Positions 3,568-61,822 of a stretch of 64,000 nt of DNA are shown one piece after another; within the stretch, counting starts at the first letter, position 1, and the number at the start of each line of letters is the position of its first letter. Source of the stretch: a phage; the sequence record OZ556245.1. One strand, written 5' to 3'. A program made the translations under genes and the position numbers. The notes below the pieces were generated by a model. That model was not told the origin of the DNA and ran no database searches. It saw only the letters and a list, made by a program, of their open reading frames with translations.

Positions 3568-5745
3568 TTAGGCCGCAAGGGCCTTCATAGTTTTAGCGAT
3601 TTGGGAAACTTCATCATCACTTAAAGAGTTGCGATAACCGATGAAGTCGGAAACAATACGGAATTTCTTGGTAAACTCAGCAACCATTTTATCACTGTTT
3701 TTTGAAGCATTATTTGATAATACATCAAAAAGATTAGTTACTGTCCAGATGTCATGACCGATGGTACCTTTTCCACCGTTGAAATATATACCCTGCAATG
3801 AACTAACCATATTACCAAGGCGAGTATATTCTTCAGAAACTTCATCTACACTGAAGTACTTCATCATAAAATCTAACTCAGGATACTTGATAATTTTATC
3901 AATATATCGTTTAGCTGAACTTGAATAACCTACATACTTATCATAATCTACAGCATCAAAAGCATCTACATATAAATCACGTAGAGTTTCAAAAATACAT
4001 TGGCACTGACCGAGTTCTTTTACCTTTTTCTGCAAAAGCGGACGAATAACATAAAATTCATTAATGCCAATAAGATTAGCCATACGAGTCAAAATACTCG
4101 TAGATGGATGACAAAGCGATGTAGTACCATCCATAGAGAAAATATCAGAACGATGCATGTATGCTACATAACCAGTAATTTCATCTGCTTCTGATGTGAG
4201 TGTAAACAGTTCCTCTTTTTCCCAGCGTCCGTCTTTAATTTCAAACTTAAATGCAGTAGCAGCTTTAGGACGAGGAGCTTTACTTTTAACTACCTTCGGA
4301 ATATAACTTTTAACTAAAGCTTCAATTTCTGACAAATAATGAATGTTAACTTCATCACTTTCAAACATCGCAATAATATCAGGAAGTAAATCAATCTGCG
4401 ATTCTACTTCCGGGTTAATAAACAGAAGACGCTCATTATGATGAATATTTAAAGTGTTATTAAATTCACTATCATCTAACGCATGTGCTAATCCACGGAC
4501 AATATTAACACGATTTTTAATATCATCAATAACGATATTAATTTTTGTTGTATTAATACCGAACAGACGATAGCTTGATGCAACGGCTGAAGTTTCATGG
4601 CTTTGCTTAATGCGTTTCAGTCGAGGGTCAAGATTTACTTCATACACAACCCCTGCATTACATAACTTACTATCAGGTTCAAACATGCTCTGCATCTTCT
4701 TATATGACAAATTTTTAGTCGTGAATTTGACTGAATTACTAATCATATAATCTCGAGCAGAATACCCCATCTTCATCAATTCGCGATATGTGTGACGAGG
4801 AGATGTAGATTCTTTAAATCGTTTTACATCTTCATTAAATGCTTGCTCACTAAGTTCTTTAACTCGTTCAATAATATTTTTACGAGTACGATCATCCAGT
4901 GAAAGAGCCTCGCGAGATGGAGCAATATCAAGTGAACCCATTGGAAACTTAATGTAATTCACTTCATTACGAATGCTTAGCCAGTTACGCTCTCTAATAA
5001 CACCATCAATAGGATAAACAATACCGCCATAGATGGCATACAATCCACCACGATCAGGCCAATATCTTTCTGGATTTACGCCATAGTAGTCATCAAAATC
5101 CGGAAAATAATCAATTTCACGGTCAAGACCATTGATGATAGCCAAATCTTTGAATGGCCGCATGATATAAGAAACTTCATAAGCAAAGTTTCTAAAGTCT
5201 TTTTCTTCAACTGGAACTACGATTTCAATACCAGTTTTATCATCTGGGCCCATTTCTTTTACAAATGTAGGTTTAATTTGTGGACCATCGCCATCCATAT
5301 AAGCTACATAACCACGAATTTCGCCTTTATGATACGAAGTAATACTAAACGTATCAGTATAACTAAATGGAGATTTAGAACCTAAACCAAATCCGCCAAT
5401 GAAATCGTTGGATTCGGCTTTAGATGAACTGAAGTATGAATTATACAGACCAGGAGAATTATCATCACCTTGAATATCAAAATCGCTCATACCCGGACCA
5501 AAATCTCGGCAAACAAATCGCGGATCTAATCGTCCTGGAACTTGAATGATAAATTTTTCATGATTTCCATTGAGAGCATGGGCGTCAATCATGTTGGTAA
5601 TCAATTCACGGACTACTGCGCGAATCTTGTTTGTATACAAATCAGATGACAGAATTTTAAATACTTTAGGAGATGCTGTGATGCTAAATGCTTTTGATTT
5701 AGAACCATTACCAAGAATTGTTTCTTTTTCAGTGGTGATAATCAT
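3568..5745 (-). CDS. rIIA: rIIA protein with N-terminal GHKL-type ATPase fold
   Basis: 725 aa as T4 rIIA; Bergerat N-box ELITNMIDA and DFGPGM G1 box near N-terminus. Confidence 0.9.
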
Positions 5746-55873: not shown

Positions 55874-56355
55874 TCAGCCTTATATTCAATAACAGGACAT
55901 ACTTTAGCTTTACGCGCTTTTAAAAATTCGACGATAATAGATTTCTTGGGTTGAATAGGCTCAAGTCCATTTTTGATTCGTTCTTCGTTTTGTACAATGA
56001 GCTCAATTTCTTTATTGAGCTTTCGGTCGTTATATTTGTCTAACAACCAGGAAGGACCAATTACCGCCCCGACAGCAATAAGAACCATGACCGATAATGC
56101 TAAAATGCCTATACCAATTGAAGCCGGAACTAATGTCCATAGGCTACTAAAGACAAAGAATTTAATTAAAATTTCTTGGCCAATTATTGCGGTACCCGCT
56201 AAAGTTGCAAATCCAACAATTGAAACAGCTAATACCGGGAGAAACGTTTTCCAAAAATAAGCACATAACGTTTTTGGACGATTCCATGTGCTGTTAAATG
56301 CCGAGTAAATTTTATAGTGCCAAGAGTTTTCATTAATAACCATAATTATAATCAT
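55870..56355 (-). CDS. integral membrane protein (161 aa)
   Basis: multiple hydrophobic helices. Confidence 0.5.
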   Translation of the reverse strand: MIIIMVINENSWHYKIYSAFNSTWNRPKTLCAYFWKTFLPVLAVSIVGFATLAGTAIIGQEILIKFFVFSSLWTLVPASIGIGILALSVMVLIAVGAVIGPSWLLDKYNDRKLNKEIELIVQNEERIKNGLEPIQPKKSIIVEFLKARKAKVCPVIEYKAE

Positions 56356-56873
56356 CCTTTCATTGAAGGTGTAACAGTTGTTAAATACTTAATCATAGCT
56401 TCAGCTTCTGATTTTGATAATGAAATTTCTCCATTGTTTTGACGAATAGAAATAAAATCCGGATGACGGTCACCACCAGCTTTTAAAACACACATATAAG
56501 TATCAGTTTCATCTTCAATATCTGAAATGATTGAAGCAGTTCCACATGAATGTGGTTTTTGATAAATCAATGCAGCTTTTCTTCCACCGTTTGACTGTTC
56601 ATAAACTTTTAACACATCAAACAAATCACTTCTTTTGTCAATAGCTAAGATGTTGTTTTCATCTTCAATGTTAAATCCTTCGGATACTTCATAAAGTGTC
56701 ACCCATAAATCACCTATATCAATAACAGCGTTCACTTTTCCATGACTTTCAAGAGCATGACAAATTTTCTTGATTTCATCATAACTCATTTTAATAATAT
56801 CATCTCCTTGAATAAGAAAGATGTCATTTTTAAATTCAACACGAATTAAACCGCTTTCACTTGAAATAAACAT
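56352..56873 (-). CDS. hypothetical protein (173 aa), paralog of next gene
   Basis: C-terminal SKSEAEAMIKYLTTVTPSM matches TKDEAIALKTYLDSVIPTM in 56880..57443. Confidence 0.5.
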   Translation of the reverse strand: MFISSESGLIRVEFKNDIFLIQGDDIIKMSYDEIKKICHALESHGKVNAVIDIGDLWVTLYEVSEGFNIEDENNILAIDKRSDLFDVLKVYEQSNGGRKAALIYQKPHSCGTASIISDIEDETDTYMCVLKAGGDRHPDFISIRQNNGEISLSKSEAEAMIKYLTTVTPSMKG

Positions 56874-56879
56874 ATTTCC

Positions 56880-57443
56880 TCACTTTGAAATCATAGTTGG
56901 AATGACAGAATCGAGATAAGTCTTTAGCGCAATAGCTTCGTCTTTGGTAAATGTGACAATATGTGAACGAAAATCATCAATTTGACGAATAGTTAAGACA
57001 TCTCCATCTTCATAGCATTTTGACACATTTAAAACAGTTTCATCATTTTGATCGCACTGATCGCAAGCGTTAGTAATAATAGCATTGCAATTTTTGAGCC
57101 ATTTTAAACTATGTTTTCTTTCATTAGAATAATAAAAATATTTAATCTTATCTATAAAACTATCCCAATGGATAACTGATAAACACATTGACTCACTTTT
57201 AATATTAAATCCTGGACATGAAGAATAAAAATGAATTTTGTGCTCATCATTGATGCTTACTATTTTATCAGTATAAGGATATTCAATTTGGGTTAAATGA
57301 ATGATTTCGCTAGGAGTAAAATATAGCATATCATCTTCTTGTGTCAAGCGATACATGTTATTTACTTTTTCTATAGCCAATTCACCAAAAAGCGGACTAA
57401 CTTCTAATACTAATCGTTTCATATTAATCCTTTTTACTGACAT
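56880..57443 (-). CDS. hypothetical Cys-rich protein (187 aa), paralog of previous gene
   Basis: shared C-terminal motif. Confidence 0.5.
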   Translation of the reverse strand: MSVKRINMKRLVLEVSPLFGELAIEKVNNMYRLTQEDDMLYFTPSEIIHLTQIEYPYTDKIVSINDEHKIHFYSSCPGFNIKSESMCLSVIHWDSFIDKIKYFYYSNERKHSLKWLKNCNAIITNACDQCDQNDETVLNVSKCYEDGDVLTIRQIDDFRSHIVTFTKDEAIALKTYLDSVIPTMISK

Positions 57444-57702
57444 AAATTTGTTCTAAAATTTTAGAGTATTCCTTTGTATCAGATTTACGCACAATCGATA
57501 CGCTATAAGGCATACTATCAGTGTCTTTTATAAAGCGTTCCAAATGACACTCTAACAAAATTTCTGGATTATAAATCGTGTACATCAAATTACCTGTTGC
57601 TCCACGATATTGGCAGATTTCTACTGATTGAGCATCATTCCACAATTTTGTTAAGACTAAATCACCTACTTCTAATTTCGGAAAGCTCACATTATTCACC
57701 AA
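57424..57702 (-). CDS. hypothetical protein (92 aa)
   Basis: ORF track. Confidence 0.45.
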   Translation of the reverse strand: MVNNVSFPKLEVGDLVLTKLWNDAQSVEICQYRGATGNLMYTIYNPEILLECHLERFIKDTDSMPYSVSIVRKSDTKEYSKILEQIYVSKKD

Positions 57703-57877
57703 TTAAAGTTTCAATATAAGAATCAAGATTTACTTTAGCTTCTTCCATAAGAGTTTTGTATTTAATCTTGTTAGCATATCCAGAGAAAGCTGATTCATCA
57801 ATAACTGTTGATGTATGAACAGCTTTACTATACATCTCAATTAATTCTCTTAATTTAAAAGCCTGCTCACTTGTCAT
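57692..57877 (-). CDS. small helical protein, S/T-x-EQ family (61 aa)
   Basis: N-terminus MTSEQAFKLRELIE; early promoter upstream. Confidence 0.45.
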   Translation of the reverse strand: MTSEQAFKLRELIEMYSKAVHTSTVIDESAFSGYANKIKYKTLMEEAKVNLDSYIETLIGE

Positions 57878-58006
57878 TACATACTCCTTTGAATAATATC
57901 AATAATGTTATTCACCAAATTATACGTAAACATTGGGTAATTATATTGAATCATCACATACACAACAAACAAAACTTTCATTCTCTTCTCCTTGGCAGTT
58001 GACAAG

Positions 58007-58039
58007 ATTACTATACCATAACCTTGCCAACTTGTAAAC
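58007..58039 (-). promoter_or_regulatory. early promoter
   Basis: GTTTAC ... TGGTATAGT. Confidence 0.5.
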
Positions 58040-58041
58040 CA

Positions 58042-58215
58042 TTAAATGACGTTTTCAATAAAATTCTGAAGCTTTGTGTGAGCATCAACCATGATTTTCA
58101 TTTCTTCCTTTGCGAAAGCTGTACCTCTTTCCCGAGCAGAATACTCATAGTCAGAAACTGCATTAGCATATTCTTCAATTAGCTTCATTAAAAACATCTG
58201 CTTTTCAGTTTTCAT
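58042..58215 (-). CDS. small helical protein, S/T-x-EQ-like family (57 aa)
   Basis: hand-translated MKTEKQMFLMKLIEEYANAV...; not in track. Confidence 0.35.
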   Translation of the reverse strand: MKTEKQMFLMKLIEEYANAVSDYEYSARERGTAFAKEEMKIMVDAHTKLQNFIENVI

Positions 58216-58399
58216 TATTCCACCTAATCATTTCAAGATATTGAACTAACTTAGCTTTGGATTTATCCAAATCCTTTTTAGTTGCTTCTATACCATCGTA
58301 TGAGTATCCTTCACAATGCTCAACTGCTAATTGGTATGAATCTATTTCAATATCACGTGCTAATTTAATGATTTTTTCAAACTGTTCACTTGTCAGCAT
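58205..58399 (-). CDS. small helical protein, S/T-x-EQ family (64 aa)
   Basis: N-terminus MLTSEQFEKIIKLARDI. Confidence 0.45.
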   Translation of the reverse strand: MLTSEQFEKIIKLARDIEIDSYQLAVEHCEGYSYDGIEATKKDLDKSKAKLVQYLEMIRWNNEN

Positions 58400-58401
58400 A
58401 C

Positions 58402-58605
58402 TTAAACTCTCGTATTATGATCGATAATTTCATCAAGAAACATATCTAAAGCTTCTACAGCATTATTAACTTTAGCTTCAAATTTTTCAATACCTTTATT
58501 TGCAATGCCTGCCGAAAACCAAGCAAAGTCACTAAGTTCCTCATCTGCTTTGCGAATTAAAGCTACCAATTCTTTAATTTTATCTGCTTGTTCAATTCTA
58601 GTCAT
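58402..58605 (-). CDS. small helical protein, S/T-x-EQ-like family (67 aa)
   Basis: ORF track 58402..58641 trimmed to internal ATG ([14 protein letters not shown]). Confidence 0.45.
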   Translation of the reverse strand: MTRIEQADKIKELVALIRKADEELSDFAWFSAGIANKGIEKFEAKVNNAVEALDMFLDEIIDHNTRV

Positions 58606-58838
58606 TATTCCACCACATATGAAAGAGAGAATATTGCACACGCCATATGAGTTGCAGCTTCATCACACATATCATAACGTTTCTTAAGAAGTTCTACAAG
58701 TTCTTCACTAGTAACTTCATCCATGTCGACGAAAAAATCACCATTAATGATGACGTAGATATTTCCTTCTTGATTGAGTGCTTCAATTTTCATGATGTTC
58801 TCCTCTTTATCCGATGGTTGTATAGTATCACGGCTCAA
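58605..58838 (-). CDS. hypothetical small protein (77 aa)
   Basis: ORF track; early promoter upstream. Confidence 0.45.
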
Positions 58839-58866
58839 ATTGAAAGTAAACTGGTAAAATGAAAAA

Positions 58867-58884
58867 AGTCTCCCGAAGGAGACT
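58867..58884 (-). terminator. UUCG-tetraloop hairpin
   Basis: AGUCUCCUUCGGGAGACUUUUUUC. Confidence 0.6.
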
Positions 58885-58888
58885 AATG

Positions 58889-59275
58889 TTATTCGAGGGA
58901 AAGAAGATATTTGCTCTGGTAAAACATCCCAGTAATATCATCTATCGTGCTTTGAATGGCTGGAGGCATTTCTTTATAAATGCTGTTAGATTGGTCTAGT
59001 ATGTGATCAATCATTTTAATTGTATCGGTAGGAAGTTTACTGGCATCTGGAATAGAAGGCGTGTATTTTCTACCAGAATACCCCAAATATTGCTCACCAA
59101 ATTTATCAATCAAATCTGGCAATTCAGAGAAAATAAAATCGTATGCTTTGTGTCTAGCATAACTTTTAGTTTCAAAATGTGCAGAATGAAAATAAGCTTG
59201 TGCAGCCATTAATAAACCTAAGTATTCATCTGCCTTTGAAGGTTTTCCACTTTGTGAAAAGTCGCTGAATTTCAT
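58889..59275 (-). CDS. hypothetical protein (128 aa), rI.-1 position
   Basis: ORF track; synteny. Confidence 0.5.
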
Positions 59276-59565
59276 TCAGTCTCCAATTTAATGTTCATAA
59301 TTCTAGCGTATGATTGTGCCATCTCCGCGCCTCGCTCTATACATTCAAAATCGGAAGAGCACGGGTCATTTTTATAAGTCGTTCGCATAAAACTATAGAA
59401 CTGTTCAGATGATTCTACGCTTTTATTTTCAAAAAGCATATAAACGTGTCTAATACCAGATTCCATAAATTTATCAAAATGAGGATCGACATTCGCTTCA
59501 ATTGGTGGAGATAAAGCAAACGCTAATCCTAGCATGGCAAATAGTGCCGTTGCTTTTAAGGCCAT
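59272..59565 (-). CDS. rI: lysis-inhibition regulator rI (periplasmic antiholin)
   Basis: 97 aa with N-terminal signal/SAR segment, next to tk. Confidence 0.75.
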   Translation of the reverse strand: MALKATALFAMLGLAFALSPPIEANVDPHFDKFMESGIRHVYMLFENKSVESSEQFYSFMRTTYKNDPCSSDFECIERGAEMAQSYARIMNIKLETE

Positions 59566-59577
59566 AAAGGCCTCCTA

Positions 59578-59790
59578 TCATTTTTGTCCTGTATTTACTT
59601 TATGCCGATGCACGGCCTTAACTTTATCAAGGTATTTTTCAAAATTTCGCAATCTAGTATAGTCTGCCGGAGATTGGTTGAGTGATACTTCTCGACGCAA
59701 AGCTGAAATGATATTTCCAACTTCCCTACGAATTTCATCTAATTGAAGAACAGTAAGATTGCGAAGTTGCTTTTCAGTTAATTGTAGCAT
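59578..59790 (-). CDS. hypothetical protein (70 aa)
   Basis: ORF track. Confidence 0.45.
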
Positions 59791-59832
59791 ATATACCCCT
59801 TTAGTTAGATAAACCTATTTATAACTTTTGCA

Positions 59833-60414
59833 CTAACCAAGCTTTTTAGTTAATTCATTCCAATGTTTTCTACACAAAGAAACATAAATTTCATCACCAA
59901 TACAGATTTGATTACCTTCTTTAACTGGCGTTCCATCTTCCATTAATCGAGCTGTCATAATAGCTTTTTTACCACAATGACAAACTGCTTTTAGTTCAAT
60001 AAGTTTATCTGCAATCGCCAAAAGTTCTTTAGAACCTTCAAATAATTTTCCAGCGAAATCAGTCCTTAGTCCATAAGCCATAACAGGAACATTATATGTA
60101 TCAACAATTCGGCTTAATTGATGCACCTGTTCAGTTTTTAAAAACTGGGCTTCATCTACAAATACACAATGAATATCCTTTTGTGCTTCAGCCCATTTAT
60201 AGAACTCAAAAATATCCATATCATCCGTAATAATATTCGCTTCCTGCTTAATTCCAATGCGAGAAACGACTTCACAGACAGAATCACGAGTATCAATAGC
60301 AGGCTTAAGAACTAATACACCCATTCCGCGTTCTTTATAATTATGCGCAGCAGTCAAAAGAGAAGCAGATTTTCCAGCATTCATTGCTGCGTAAGTAAAA
60401 ATTAAACTCGCCAT
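59833..60414 (-). CDS. tk: thymidine kinase
   Basis: 193 aa; P-loop AAMNAGKSASLL; C-terminal Cys cluster. Confidence 0.9.
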   Translation of the reverse strand: MASLIFTYAAMNAGKSASLLTAAHNYKERGMGVLVLKPAIDTRDSVCEVVSRIGIKQEANIITDDMDIFEFYKWAEAQKDIHCVFVDEAQFLKTEQVHQLSRIVDTYNVPVMAYGLRTDFAGKLFEGSKELLAIADKLIELKAVCHCGKKAIMTARLMEDGTPVKEGNQICIGDEIYVSLCRKHWNELTKKLG

Positions 60415-60415
60415 C

Positions 60416-60604
60416 TTAGTCCTTAGTTAAATTTTCTAAATATGTTTCTAAATCATTTTCAGCTTTATCGATAGATTTTACTAATTCGTAATATGTTTCA
60501 GCATCTCCATAATCTGAAGCCGCTTCAAAAGATAAATCTCGTTCTAAACTAACAATTTCGCTGATTAAAAATCGTATTTCATTCTTTTGTTCGCGAGTAA
60601 TCAT
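60416..60604 (-). CDS. small helical protein, S/T-x-EQ family (62 aa)
   Basis: N-terminus MITREQKNEIRFLISEI. Confidence 0.45.
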   Translation of the reverse strand: MITREQKNEIRFLISEIVSLERDLSFEAASDYGDAETYYELVKSIDKAENDLETYLENLTKD

Positions 60605-60786
60605 AAGGAATTTATATAATCAATAAGTTCTTGTTCTTTATCGTCGAAATCTTTACACAGTTCTTCGTATTCATCGGTATTAAAAGGACCGCATTCATCA
60701 CAAACTTTTTCTAATTCATTGTTTTTATCCATAACTTCATGAATAAGAGAAAACAGCCTGTCTTTCTGTTCTTTGCTTAGGCTCAT
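60601..60786 (-). CDS. small helical protein, S/T-x-EQ family (61 aa)
   Basis: N-terminus MSLSKEQKDRLFSLIHEV. Confidence 0.45.
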   Translation of the reverse strand: MSLSKEQKDRLFSLIHEVMDKNNELEKVCDECGPFNTDEYEELCKDFDDKEQELIDYINSL

Positions 60787-60955
60787 AGTATGTCAATCCC
60801 CAAAAGTTTTAAAATGACTCGTTTCTGATTCATAACCGCTACGATTGAATGACCGTTGGGGTCTTTTTGACCTGATCCAATTATAAATCCTTTTTGCGCA
60901 GAAAGTTCAATCAAAACATCAAGTTCACGTAATAATTGATATTTTAAATCATCAT

Positions 60956-61183
60956 TCATTTTGGTTTACCTTCTTTAACGAAATCGGGATAAGGATAAAA
61001 TCCTGAATAAAATCCTTCACCTTTATGATTGATGCATCCTTTATTAGAACAGTAGCACCAATAATCGAAATCACAAGCCATTTCATCATTACATAAAGCA
61101 AAAACAACCGGCCATTCACACTTTTCGCAGTGGGCATTTTTAAGAATACTAGTTTGGCTCATAACCATGTAACCTTTAAGCAA
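60956..61183 (-). CDS. Cys-rich small protein (75 aa)
   Basis: eight Cys in CEKCEW...CNDEMACDFDYWCYCSNKGC. Confidence 0.45.
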   Translation of the reverse strand: MLKGYMVMSQTSILKNAHCEKCEWPVVFALCNDEMACDFDYWCYCSNKGCINHKGEGFYSGFYPYPDFVKEGKPK

Positions 61184-61371
61184 TATTCTTCTACGTGCTG
61201 TTTACGACCTTTCTTATCAATAAAGGTATATTCAACGAATGTTCCAACATAGTCTTTATTTACATCATGTGGACTATTAATTGGGCATTTAGTACGGCAA
61301 ATGCGTTCCCATTGACGAATAATTTCCACTTTGTTTTTAGGATCAAATGGATGCGGGTAATGTACTTTCAT
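61159..61371 (-). CDS. hypothetical protein (70 aa)
   Basis: ORF track. Confidence 0.45.
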   Translation of the reverse strand: MKVHYPHPFDPKNKVEIIRQWERICRTKCPINSPHDVNKDYVGTFVEYTFIDKKGRKQHVEEYCLKVTWL

Positions 61372-61822
61372 AATCCACCACTATTAAATCAATATCAGGA
61401 GTAAACATGTCGATTAATTTAGAAACCTTATCCCAATCGCCGCCAGCAATACCGCAACCGATGCGTGGAATGTAAATTACTGGTTTAAACAAAAGGGTTT
61501 CTGCCTGTAGATTTAATTCTATCATGCAGTTTACTAAAGCACCATAATCAAGATTAGGACCCGGTTCGTATTGCGTATACAAATTATAGCACATACTAAA
61601 TCCTGTAGGATTATGTTTAAAAACAATAGACATATCGCCTAATTTATCACGAGAACCGTACTCGGTAGTGGTTTTATCTATTTCTAAAATTTTGGGATAG
61701 GCTCTTGCTAATTGACCTGCTACGCCAGAGCCCATTGTGTGGAAGCAATTACACCCGTGCGCAATAATATTACCTTGAAGAAATAGGGCGACAATATCGC
61801 CCTTGATATATTTTACAATCAT
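61343..61822 (-). CDS. macro-domain protein (ADP-ribose binding/processing fold)
   Basis: KGDIVAL...HGCNCFHTMGSGVAGQL...IPRIGCGIAGGDW matches macro-domain GDI, Gly-rich loop and second Gly loop. Confidence 0.6.
   Translation of the reverse strand: MIVKYIKGDIVALFLQGNIIAHGCNCFHTMGSGVAGQLARAYPKILEIDKTTTEYGSRDKLGDMSIVFKHNPTGFSMCYNLYTQYEPGPNLDYGALVNCMIELNLQAETLLFKPVIYIPRIGCGIAGGDWDKVSKLIDMFTPDIDLIVVDYESTLPASI

What the first reader, a model, noticed from the sequence alone, without database searches (positions are those of the whole stretch)
57692..60786. Family of small (about 60 aa) helical proteins with an N-terminal S/T-x-EQ motif
At least six small ORFs scattered around rI and tk (57692..57877, 58042..58215, 58205..58399, 58402..58605, 60416..60604, 60601..60786) begin with similar N-termini (MTSEQ, MLTSEQ, MTRIEQ, MITREQ, MSLSKEQ) and have similar length and helical character. 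Some are missing from the ORF track. This looks like an expanded paralog family of unknown function.
Basis: seen in the sequence. Interest (0 to 1): 0.5.

Follow-up and report, generated by a model that had tools for sequence, protein, structure and literature searches.

The report
Known T4 small helical-hairpin family (DUF7438)
Six small genes around rI and tk in this T4/T6-like phage are true paralogs encoding about 60-residue two-helix hairpin proteins; the family is already curated as Pfam DUF7438 (T4 genes mobD.2a, mobD.3, mobD.4, tk.1, tk.2) and its function is still unknown.

Summary
The window is a Tequatrovirus genome (98% identical to phage Ec_YwIITB1, 94.5% to T6). All six ORFs are intact on the minus strand at the stated coordinates. 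Each matches Pfam PF24219 (DUF7438) over the full profile at 54-70 bits (cut-off 25). A leave-one-out profile ranks each omitted paralog first of 715 window ORFs, and no seventh member lies in the window.

- **Identity:** they correspond to T4 mobD.2a (frameshifted in T4, intact here), mobD.3, mobD.4, tk.1 and tk.2, plus one gene that T4 lacks.
- **Structure:** AlphaFold2 predicts a two-helix hairpin for Tk.2 and MobD.4 (pLDDT 92 and 90).
- **Expression:** T4 omics data place the RNAs early and assign a protein class to MobD.3, MobD.4, Tk.1 and Tk.2.
- **Selection:** dN/dS is 0.06-0.32, so selection is purifying but looser than on tk.
- **Variability:** copy number runs from 0 to 6 across T4-like phages, with divergent alleles and in-register Tk.2/Tk.1 fusions.
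- **Function:** no solved relative, named family or paper gives one.

My inferred mechanism is early accessory proteins that bind host or defence proteins. The finding is real but already catalogued, so interest is modest.

The parts
57692..57877 (-). Member A, 61 aa (MTSEQAFKLRELIE...). T4 has no counterpart; T6 does.
   Evidence: PF24219 at 54.5 bits. Best PHROG is phrog_4859. No match in the T4 locus. A tblastn match in 193 phage records, against 502 records with tk at 95% identity or more. GGAG lies upstream of the ATG.
58042..58215 (-). Member B, 57 aa. An intact version of T4 mobD.2a.
   Evidence: PF24219 at 59.8 bits. In T4 the N- and C-terminal halves lie in two different reading frames, i.e. 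a frameshift. Its start overlaps the end of C by 11 nt.
58205..58399 (-). Member C, 64 aa, equivalent to T4 mobD.3.
   Evidence: PF24219 at 60.6 bits. 94% identical to T4 MobD.3, with dN/dS 0.14. The loop motif AVE(H/L)CEGYSY is kept in relatives only 45-72% identical overall.
58402..58605 (-). Member D, 67 aa, equivalent to T4 mobD.4 but with a longer loop allele.
   Evidence: PF24219 at 58.2 bits. AlphaFold2 gives a hairpin, H3-31 and H39-66, pLDDT 90.4. The loop varies by insertions and deletions among orthologs.
60416..60604 (-). Member E, 62 aa, equivalent to T4 tk.1. Very acidic.
   Evidence: PF24219 at 56.5 bits. Net charge -9.5, pI 4.26. Its ATG overlaps the stop of F as ATGA. Absent from loci L003, L005 and L006 although their tk is 99.5-100% identical.
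60601..60786 (-). Member F, 61 aa, equivalent to T4 tk.2. The most acidic member.
   Evidence: PF24219 at 69.6 bits. AlphaFold2 gives a hairpin, H5-30 and H37-60, pLDDT 92.3. Net charge -11.4. Two allele classes exist: 168 records at 80% identity or more, 573 records below 60%.
58822..58851 (-). Context only: early-promoter-like site (GTTTAC, 18 nt, TACTAT) upstream of mobD.5. It could drive mobD.5, D, C and B.
   Evidence: Read from the sequence. A mobD.5 promoter was mapped by primer extension in T4 (PMC1702504). That the two sites are equivalent is inferred from position only.
58867..58884 (-). Context only: terminator-like hairpin plus a T run after rI.-1, separating it from the mobD.5-to-mobD.2a block.
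   Evidence: Consensus scan. Function not shown.
58438..58465 (-). Context only: MotA-box-like TGCTGTA and a -10-like TATGTT inside the 3' end of D, about 32 nt upstream of C.
   Evidence: Read from the sequence. T4 middle promoter PmobD.3 is listed at T4 position 58381, 32 nt upstream of mobD.3 (PMC2988021). Equivalence is inferred.
58010..58038 (-). Context only: sigma-70/T4-early-like promoter match (TTTACA, 17 nt, TATAGT, with TG) between B and mobD.2, upstream of A.
   Evidence: Consensus scan, 10 of 12 matches. Not tested.

Best explanation
Shown: the six ORFs are anciently duplicated paralogs of one phage protein family, Pfam DUF7438. Each encodes a soluble, acidic protein of 57-67 aa. 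The two members modelled are predicted to fold as a single antiparallel two-helix hairpin. They sit in two same-strand clusters in the early, dispensable region of a T4/T6-like genome. One cluster is mobD.5 to mobD.2a plus the extra gene; the other is tk.2-tk.1, directly upstream of tk. The genes have overlapping or abutting starts and stops, which fits translational coupling. In T4 their RNAs are early and four of the proteins are assigned a temporal class. They evolve under purifying selection, but faster than neighbouring core genes. Copy number changes between phages through gene loss, frameshift decay, allele replacement and in-register fusion of neighbours.

Inferred mechanism: the proteins have no catalytic features. 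I propose they act stoichiometrically as small binding modules, probably pairing into four-helix bundles. The helix termini, which are conserved across the family (N-terminal Ser/Thr cap plus Glu-Gln; C-terminal A-x3-L-x2-Y/F-L/I-E-x-L), would form the common scaffold. The paralog-specific loop and loop-proximal surfaces would each recognise a different host or anti-phage defence protein, blocking or redirecting it early in infection.

Confidence that this is a real, expressed DUF7438 paralog family is about 0.97. Confidence in the binder/inhibitor mechanism is about 0.35-0.4.
For: **Family membership**
- Pfam PF24219 at 54-70 bits for all six.
- Leave-one-out rank 1 of 715 for each.
- Exactly six members in the window.

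**Fold**
- AlphaFold2 predicts hairpins with pLDDT 92.3 and 90.4.

**Soluble and acidic**
- pI 4.2-5.3 and negative GRAVY for all six.

**Expressed in T4**
- MobD.3 and MobD.4 are classed early RNA, early protein. Tk.1 and Tk.2 are classed early RNA, middle protein. The frameshifted mobD.2a has no protein class (PMC9697503 supplements).
- Promoters PmobD.3 and Ptk.3 are listed for T4, and a mobD.5 promoter was mapped.

**Dispensable**
- The block nrdC.11 to mobD.3 is deletable in T4 (PMC9825161).

**Under selection**
- dN/dS is 0.06-0.32 where dS is at least 0.09, against 0.01-0.03 for tk.

**Accessory and plastic**
- 6 copies here and in T6; 4 plus a pseudogene in T4; 0-3 in other T4-like genera.
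- A is found in 193 and Tk.1 in 195 phage records, against 502 records with tk at 95% identity or more.
- Tk.2 has two allele classes.
- tk.1 is missing next to a 99.5-100% identical tk in L003, L005 and L006.
- Tk.2(N)-Tk.1(C) fusion proteins exist (P0043, P0093).

**Paralog-specific motifs**
- Loop motifs are kept across genera, for example AVEHCEGYSY in MobD.3.

**Precedent**
Against: - No experiment or homology links any member to a target.
- dN/dS gives no sign of gene-wide positive selection.
- Oligomeric state was not modelled.
- A variable loop with conserved helix ends is expected for any helical hairpin, so it does not prove target specificity.
- Conserved position directly upstream of tk in several genera could instead point to a link with nucleotide metabolism.
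Confidence: 0.45

Rival explanations
1. The proteins are accessory or regulatory partners of phage nucleotide metabolism, for example modulators of thymidine kinase or adaptors of the dNTP-synthesising complex. This would explain the conserved position of a member immediately upstream of tk.
For: In many T4-like loci from several genera, a family member ends within a few bases of the tk start (L011, L015, L021, L025). In the window tk.2, tk.1 and tk are tightly packed, with the tk.2 stop overlapping the tk.1 start.
Against: Four of the six lie about 1.2-2.7 kb away, beyond rI, next to unrelated genes. tk.1 is absent beside a 99.5-100% identical tk in L003, L005 and L006. Sixteen of the 40 tk-anchored IMG/VR loci have no member at all. 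Gene order in T4-like phages is broadly conserved anyway.
Confidence: 0.1
2. The proteins regulate gene expression by binding RNA polymerase, sigma factors or RNA. This would resemble the small helical T4 protein AsiA, or the plasmid hairpin protein Rop, which dimerises and binds RNA loop complexes.
Against: No sequence similarity to Rop, AsiA or any named family. The proteins are acidic, which argues against direct nucleic-acid binding. The hairpin fold is non-specific.
Confidence: 0.15
3. The proteins are accessory factors of lysis inhibition, acting with the neighbouring rI, rI.1 and rI.-1 genes, in the way the small cytoplasmic helical protein RIII supports the antiholin.
For: They lie close to rI, rI.1 and rI.-1. 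rI.-1 and rI.1 have reported roles in lysis inhibition (PMC2962797, title and abstract listed).
Against: Profile comparison with rI.1 shows no relationship (probability 0.7%). Members vary in presence while rI is nearly invariant. Early timing does not fit a lysis-timing role. Distant members sit in other early regions, or in a non-T4 phage with no rI nearby.
Confidence: 0.05
4. Tk.1 and Tk.2 specifically are DNA mimics. Their dense negative surface would imitate the DNA backbone and so inhibit a DNA-binding host enzyme such as a restriction or repair nuclease.
For: Net charges of -9.5 and -11.4 over about 61 residues, pI about 4.2. Small size and high Asp/Glu content are typical of known DNA-mimic proteins (general knowledge, not tested here).
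Against: The other four paralogs are only mildly acidic, -2.4 to -5.4, so this cannot be the property of the whole family. No structural match to known mimics stands out.
Confidence: 0.1
5. There is no real family: the ORFs are chance or non-coding, and they look alike only because of helix-favouring composition.
For: Pairwise identities are low, 24-34%. With the N-terminus masked, two of the six fail the leave-one-out test.
Against: Strong full-length Pfam matches. Rank 1 of 715 in leave-one-out tests. dN/dS well below 1. Protein classes assigned in T4. Orthologs in hundreds of phage genomes.
Confidence: 0.02

Closest known systems
Pfam PF24219, DUF7438 (T4 MobD.2a, MobD.3, MobD.4, Tk.1, Tk.2); NCBI name 'DUF7438 family protein'
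   Same: All six proteins are full-length members (54-70 bits, profile positions 1-57). They share the size, the phage group and the genomic positions of the T4 genes. NCBI already uses the family name.
   Different: Nothing differs in kind. This genome has more intact copies (6) than T4 (4 plus a frameshifted mobD.2a). It also carries one member, at 57692-57877, that T4 lacks.
Rop (ColE1 repressor of primer), a 63-aa helical hairpin that forms a homodimeric four-helix bundle
Small counter-defence proteins of T-even and related phages that bind and neutralise host toxins (AdfA of RB69, AdfB of ICP1; also Dmd and TifA of T4)
   Same: Small early accessory proteins without enzymatic motifs. Alleles vary between related phages (PMC11825919; the Dmd and TifA examples come from general knowledge).
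   Different: No homology was shown or tested against these proteins. No target, phenotype or interaction is known for any DUF7438 member.
PHROG families phrog_653, phrog_2758 and phrog_4859
   Same: The six proteins fall into these three PHROGs and cross-hit between them.
   Different: phrog_4859 carries the label 'helicase loader'. Nothing found here supports that label, so it looks like a propagated annotation.

Membership tests
Pfam DUF7438 (PF24219) | Whole-protein HMM score above the curated gathering score of 25 bits | tested here: met
   54.5, 59.8, 60.6, 58.2, 56.5 and 69.6 bits for the six ORFs.
Pfam DUF7438 (PF24219) | The match covers the whole 57-position profile in a single-domain protein of about 60 aa | tested here: met
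   Profile positions 1-57, 1-56 or 3-57 of 57; proteins of 57-67 aa.
Pfam DUF7438 (PF24219) | Two-helix hairpin architecture | tested here: met
   AlphaFold2 for Tk.2 gives H5-30 and H37-60 (pLDDT 92.3). For MobD.4 it gives H3-31 and H39-66 (pLDDT 90.4). These are predictions, not experimental structures.
Pfam DUF7438 (PF24219) | Found in T4-like (Straboviridae) phages, in early gene blocks | tested here: met
   The window is a Tequatrovirus. Named relatives are from Tequatrovirus, Mosigvirus and VR25/VR26-type phages. Only 38 representative clusters among 1.84 billion proteins reach E of 0.001 or less. One outlier lies in a 58%-GC phage contig that is not T4-like.
Rop-like four-helix-bundle dimers | Sequence membership in the Rop family | tested here: not met
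   No Rop hit in Pfam or in PDB sequences, even at permissive E-values.
Rop-like four-helix-bundle dimers | Helical hairpin that homodimerises into a four-helix bundle | not testable with these tools
DNA-mimic proteins | Very high density of surface negative charge | tested here: inconclusive
   Tk.1 at -9.5 and Tk.2 at -11.4 qualify. The other four, at -2.4 to -5.4, do not. The spatial charge pattern was not analysed.
Known anti-defence protein families | Sequence or profile homology to a characterised anti-defence protein | not tested
   No anti-defence library was available. Pfam, NCBIfam and PHROGs give no such name. PADLOC, which holds defence rather than anti-defence proteins, gives nothing significant.

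The most novel reading that the evidence does not exclude
DUF7438 could be a diversifiable hairpin scaffold that T-even phages use as a small arsenal of inhibitors. Each paralog or allele would neutralise a different host immunity component, for example toxins of abortive-infection or toxin-antitoxin systems. The extremely acidic Tk.1 and Tk.2 could act as DNA mimics against nucleases. The gains, losses, allele swaps and fusions seen between phages would then record an arms race.
Probability: 0.25. Interest if true: 0.65.

Novelty: already known. Interest (0 to 1): 0.3.

Why it matters
Roughly half of T4's genes still have no function, and small early accessory genes are where counter-defence and host-takeover factors keep being found. 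This work shows that six such genes in one genome are a single, expressed, selected hairpin family with strong presence/absence and allele polymorphism. That turns six orphan ORFs into one testable target. It also gives natural comparisons for experiments: T4 lacks two intact copies that T6-type phages have, and some phages lack tk.1. As a discovery it adds little, because the family is already in Pfam and in NCBI naming.

Tried and rejected
- **Locus search with the family alignment.** The search for related loci failed because no stretch of the alignment was conserved enough. I used tk as an anchor instead.
- **Literature.** Searches for DUF7438, tk.1, tk.2, mobD.2a-mobD.5 and the neighbouring Pfam names found no functional study. 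Searches failed on term length.
- **Homology to solved structures or named families.** PDB sequences, NCBIfam and PADLOC gave only insignificant hits.
- **Neighbouring small ORFs as hidden members.** I tested rI.1 (which begins MLQLTEKQ), the 58-aa ORF at 60783-60959 and mobD.5. hhalign probabilities were 0.7%, 0.4% and 0.1%, so all three were rejected.
- **Suspected Tk.2/Tk.1 fusion in L003, L005 and L006.** DNA alignment showed a divergent tk.2 allele with tk.1 simply absent. Real fusions exist elsewhere (P0043, P0093).
- **Recent duplication.** DNA-level repeats between paralogs are absent beyond 13-15 nt, so the duplications are old.
- **Positive selection.** Pairwise dN/dS stays below 1, so this is not supported gene-wide.
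Full report
**What the window is.** The stretch 57400-61000 is 98% identical to Escherichia phage Ec_YwIITB1 and 94.5% identical to phage T6. The genome is therefore a Tequatrovirus (T4/T6-like, Straboviridae). All genes in the region run on the minus strand. Comparison with the T4 record fixes the order in the direction of transcription:
- vs.1, vs, tk.4 (a macro-domain protein), tk.3
- two small genes that T4 lacks
- tk.2, tk.1, tk, rI.1, rI, rI.-1
- mobD.5, mobD.4, mobD.3, mobD.2a, mobD.2
- two further genes that T4 lacks
- mobD.1

**Checking the observation.** The six ORFs are present exactly as listed, each with an ATG and a stop.
- Pairwise BLASTP between them gives colinear alignments over 56-63 residues at 24-34% identity.
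- Every one matches Pfam PF24219 (DUF7438) over essentially the whole 57-position profile. Scores are 54-70 bits against a curated cut-off of 25.
- They fall into three cross-hitting PHROGs: 653, 2758 and 4859.
- I built profiles from five paralogs and searched all 720 stop-to-stop ORFs of the window. The omitted sixth ranked first of 715 every time (E from 2e-7 to 0.03).
- With the first 12 residues removed from the training sequences, four of the six still ranked first.
- Profiles from the six, or from 27 diverse family members, find exactly these six in the 64 kb window.
- rI.1, mobD.5 and the 58-aa ORF at 60783-60959 are unrelated by profile comparison.
B reads MKTEKQ and D reads MTRIEQ. 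Only M1, the Glu, and one Leu in each helix are invariant among the six.

**Correspondence to T4.**

| Window ORF | Label | T4 gene | Note |
|---|---|---|---|
| 58205-58399 | C | mobD.3 | |
| 58402-58605 | D | mobD.4 | |
| 60416-60604 | E | tk.1 | |
| 60601-60786 | F | tk.2 | |
| 58042-58215 | B | mobD.2a | intact here |
| 57692-57877 | A | none | present in T6 |

In T4 the annotated 38-aa MobD.2a is only the N-terminal half. The C-terminal half lies in another frame just downstream, so the T4 copy is a frameshifted pseudogene. A has no T4 counterpart but is present in T6.

**Are they real genes?** Yes.
- Against T4, T6 and five IMG/VR relatives, pairwise dN/dS is 0.06-0.32 wherever dS is at least 0.09. 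That is clearly purifying, but several-fold looser than tk (0.01-0.03), rI or rI.-1.
- In the published T4 time-course, MobD.3 and MobD.4 are classed early RNA, early protein. Tk.1 and Tk.2 are classed early RNA, middle protein. The frameshifted mobD.2a has no protein class (PMC9697503 supplements).
- T4 middle promoters are listed at PmobD.3 and Ptk.3 (PMC2988021). A mobD.5 promoter was mapped by primer extension (PMC1702504).
- Sequences resembling these signals sit at the equivalent positions in the window. That equivalence is my inference.
- Starts and stops overlap or abut: ATGA at F/E and at the ORF upstream of F, and an 11-nt overlap of C and B. This fits translational coupling.

**Structure.**
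- AlphaFold2 with family alignments predicts a single antiparallel two-helix hairpin for Tk.2 (helices 5-30 and 37-60, pLDDT 92.3) and for MobD.4 (3-31 and 39-66, pLDDT 90.4).
- The Ser/Thr before the conserved Glu-Gln sits at the helix N-cap position in the Tk.2 model. Part of the "motif" is therefore probably a helix cap (inference).
- In a hairpin, the conserved N-terminal segment and the conserved C-terminal A-x3-L-x2-Y/F-L/I-E-x-L segment lie side by side at the open end. The loop end is variable across the family.
- Within individual paralog lineages, however, the loop can be the best-conserved part. AVE(H/L)CEGYSY in MobD.3 is kept in relatives only 45-72% identical overall.
- All six proteins are soluble and acidic. 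Tk.1 and Tk.2 are extreme, with net charges of -9.5 and -11.4.
- PDB sequences, NCBIfam and PADLOC give nothing significant.

**Distribution and dynamics.**
- An exhaustive profile search of 1.84 billion representative proteins found only 38 clusters at E of 0.001 or less. About two-thirds are proteins of about 60 aa. The long hits match in several stretches, so I read them as coiled-coil noise.
- Named members come from Tequatrovirus, Mosigvirus and VR25/VR26-type phages, and NCBI already calls some "DUF7438 family protein".
- One divergent member lies in a 58%-GC phage contig beside a DUF5906 protein, so the family is not strictly confined to T4-like phages.
- In 40 tk-anchored IMG/VR loci, copy number ranges from 5 down to 0. 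Members are always on the tk strand, and one often sits immediately upstream of tk.
- In GenBank phages, tk at 95% identity or more occurs in 502 records. A occurs in only 193 and Tk.1 in 195. Tk.2 occurs in 742 records but as two allele classes: 168 at 80% or more, 573 below 60%.
- Loci L003, L005 and L006 carry a tk 99.5-100% identical to the window's, yet lack tk.1 and have the divergent tk.2 allele.
- Two database proteins are in-register fusions of the N-terminal helix of Tk.2 with the C-terminal helix of Tk.1 (P0043 from phage UFV-AREG1, and P0093). The halves are therefore structurally interchangeable.
- The paralogs share no DNA-level repeats beyond 13-15 nt, so the duplications are old.
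- The block nrdC.11 to mobD.3 can be deleted from T4 (PMC9825161).

**Most likely mechanism.** No tool or paper gave a function. What is shown is this: small, non-enzymatic, acidic hairpins; made early; dispensable in the laboratory; under purifying selection; variable in copy number and allele; and carrying paralog-specific conserved surfaces. From that I infer stoichiometric binding modules, probably dimerising into four-helix bundles, that each engage a different host or defence protein early in infection. AdfA and AdfB set a precedent: small phage proteins without known homologs that appear to block a defence toxin by binding it (PMC11825919). I put this mechanism at about 0.35-0.4.

**Rivals.**
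- A regulatory role on RNA polymerase or RNA, in the manner of Rop or AsiA: 0.15.
- A link to thymidine kinase or dNTP metabolism, suggested by conserved adjacency to tk: 0.1.
- DNA mimicry by Tk.1 and Tk.2 only: 0.1.
- Lysis-inhibition accessories: 0.05.
- A chance or non-coding origin: excluded.

**Novelty and verdict.** The family is already curated (Pfam DUF7438) and five of the six genes are named in T4, so this is already known as a family, with function still open. Its value is as a compact experimental target, not as a discovery. Interest is 0.3.

Noticed in passing
window 56352-56873 and 56880-57443 (minus strand): Two adjacent genes, one being the mobD.1 homolog, are tandem paralogs. 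Both match Pfam T4_y05I_N plus T4_y05I_C ('y05I-like putative transcription factor'), making a second paralog pair right next to the DUF7438 cluster.
   Followed up: partly
window 57424-57877 (minus strand): A 92-aa 'Phage tudor domain' protein (PF24144, 131 bits) together with family member A forms a two-gene insertion relative to T4. It lies between mobD.1 and mobD.2 and is present in T6.
   Followed up: partly
L002 (T4, NC_000866) locus 3994-4178, i.e. T4 about 57993-58177: T4 mobD.2a, annotated as 38 aa, is a frameshifted DUF7438 gene. Its C-terminal helix is encoded in another frame just downstream. The T4 omics tables give it no protein class.
   Followed up: yes
Public annotations of window 58402-58605 and 57692-57877 homologs: MobD.4 homologs are widely named 'molybdopterin-guanine dinucleotide biosynthesis protein MobD', apparently from confusion with the gene symbol mobD. 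Homologs of A are labelled 'helicase loader' through phrog_4859. Nothing found here supports either name.
   Followed up: partly
window 60783-61162 (minus strand): Two small genes between tk.2 and tk.3 are absent from T4. One is a 58-aa ORF (phrog_3452) whose alleles in relatives are only 55-59% identical. The other is a 68-aa 'Phage zinc binding domain' protein (PF23895).
   Followed up: partly
window 61343-61822 (minus strand): The tk.4 macro-domain gene exists as two allele classes. The window's copy is 97-98% identical to those in L003 and L005, but only 56-58% identical to those in T4, T6, L004, L006 and L007, while the flanking vs and tk genes are 96-100% identical. This is a sharp mosaic boundary.
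   Followed up: partly
L044 23818-24042 (Ec_YwIITB1 138818-139042), outside the window: A 74-aa protein next to pseT (MISWHQFEHLKGLI...KASKDLHDYIQSLVEK) resembles the family at both ends. It gets a marginal profile hit (E 0.0035, 15 bits) and no Pfam DUF7438 hit, so it may be a distant seventh member. Genome positions 80-115 kb of this phage were not scanned.
   Followed up: partly
L048 4821-5210: A 129-aa protein with a C-terminal DUF7438 domain (39 bits) lies in a 58%-GC, 35-kb phage contig beside DUF5906, AAA_3/AAA_5 and DUF2201 genes. This is outside the T4-like phages.
   Followed up: partly
window 58212-58224 and 58602-58614: An identical 13-nt junction, GGTGGAATAATGA on the coding strand (Shine-Dalgarno-like sequence plus ATG), precedes both B and D. 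It ends the upstream genes mobD.3 and mobD.5 respectively.
   Followed up: no
L008-L010 (IMG/VR contigs; L009 and L010 about 121 kb, L008 21 kb): These contigs carry a tk 82% identical to the window's, plus 2-3 DUF7438 members. Their identity was not determined.
   Followed up: no
window 57877-57981 (minus strand): The mobD.2 homolog encodes a short, strongly hydrophobic peptide (MKVLFVVYVMIQYNYPMF...) between B and A. A metagenomic protein, P0045, is a read-through fusion of B with this peptide and carries a PF26864 hit alongside PF24219.
   Followed up: no
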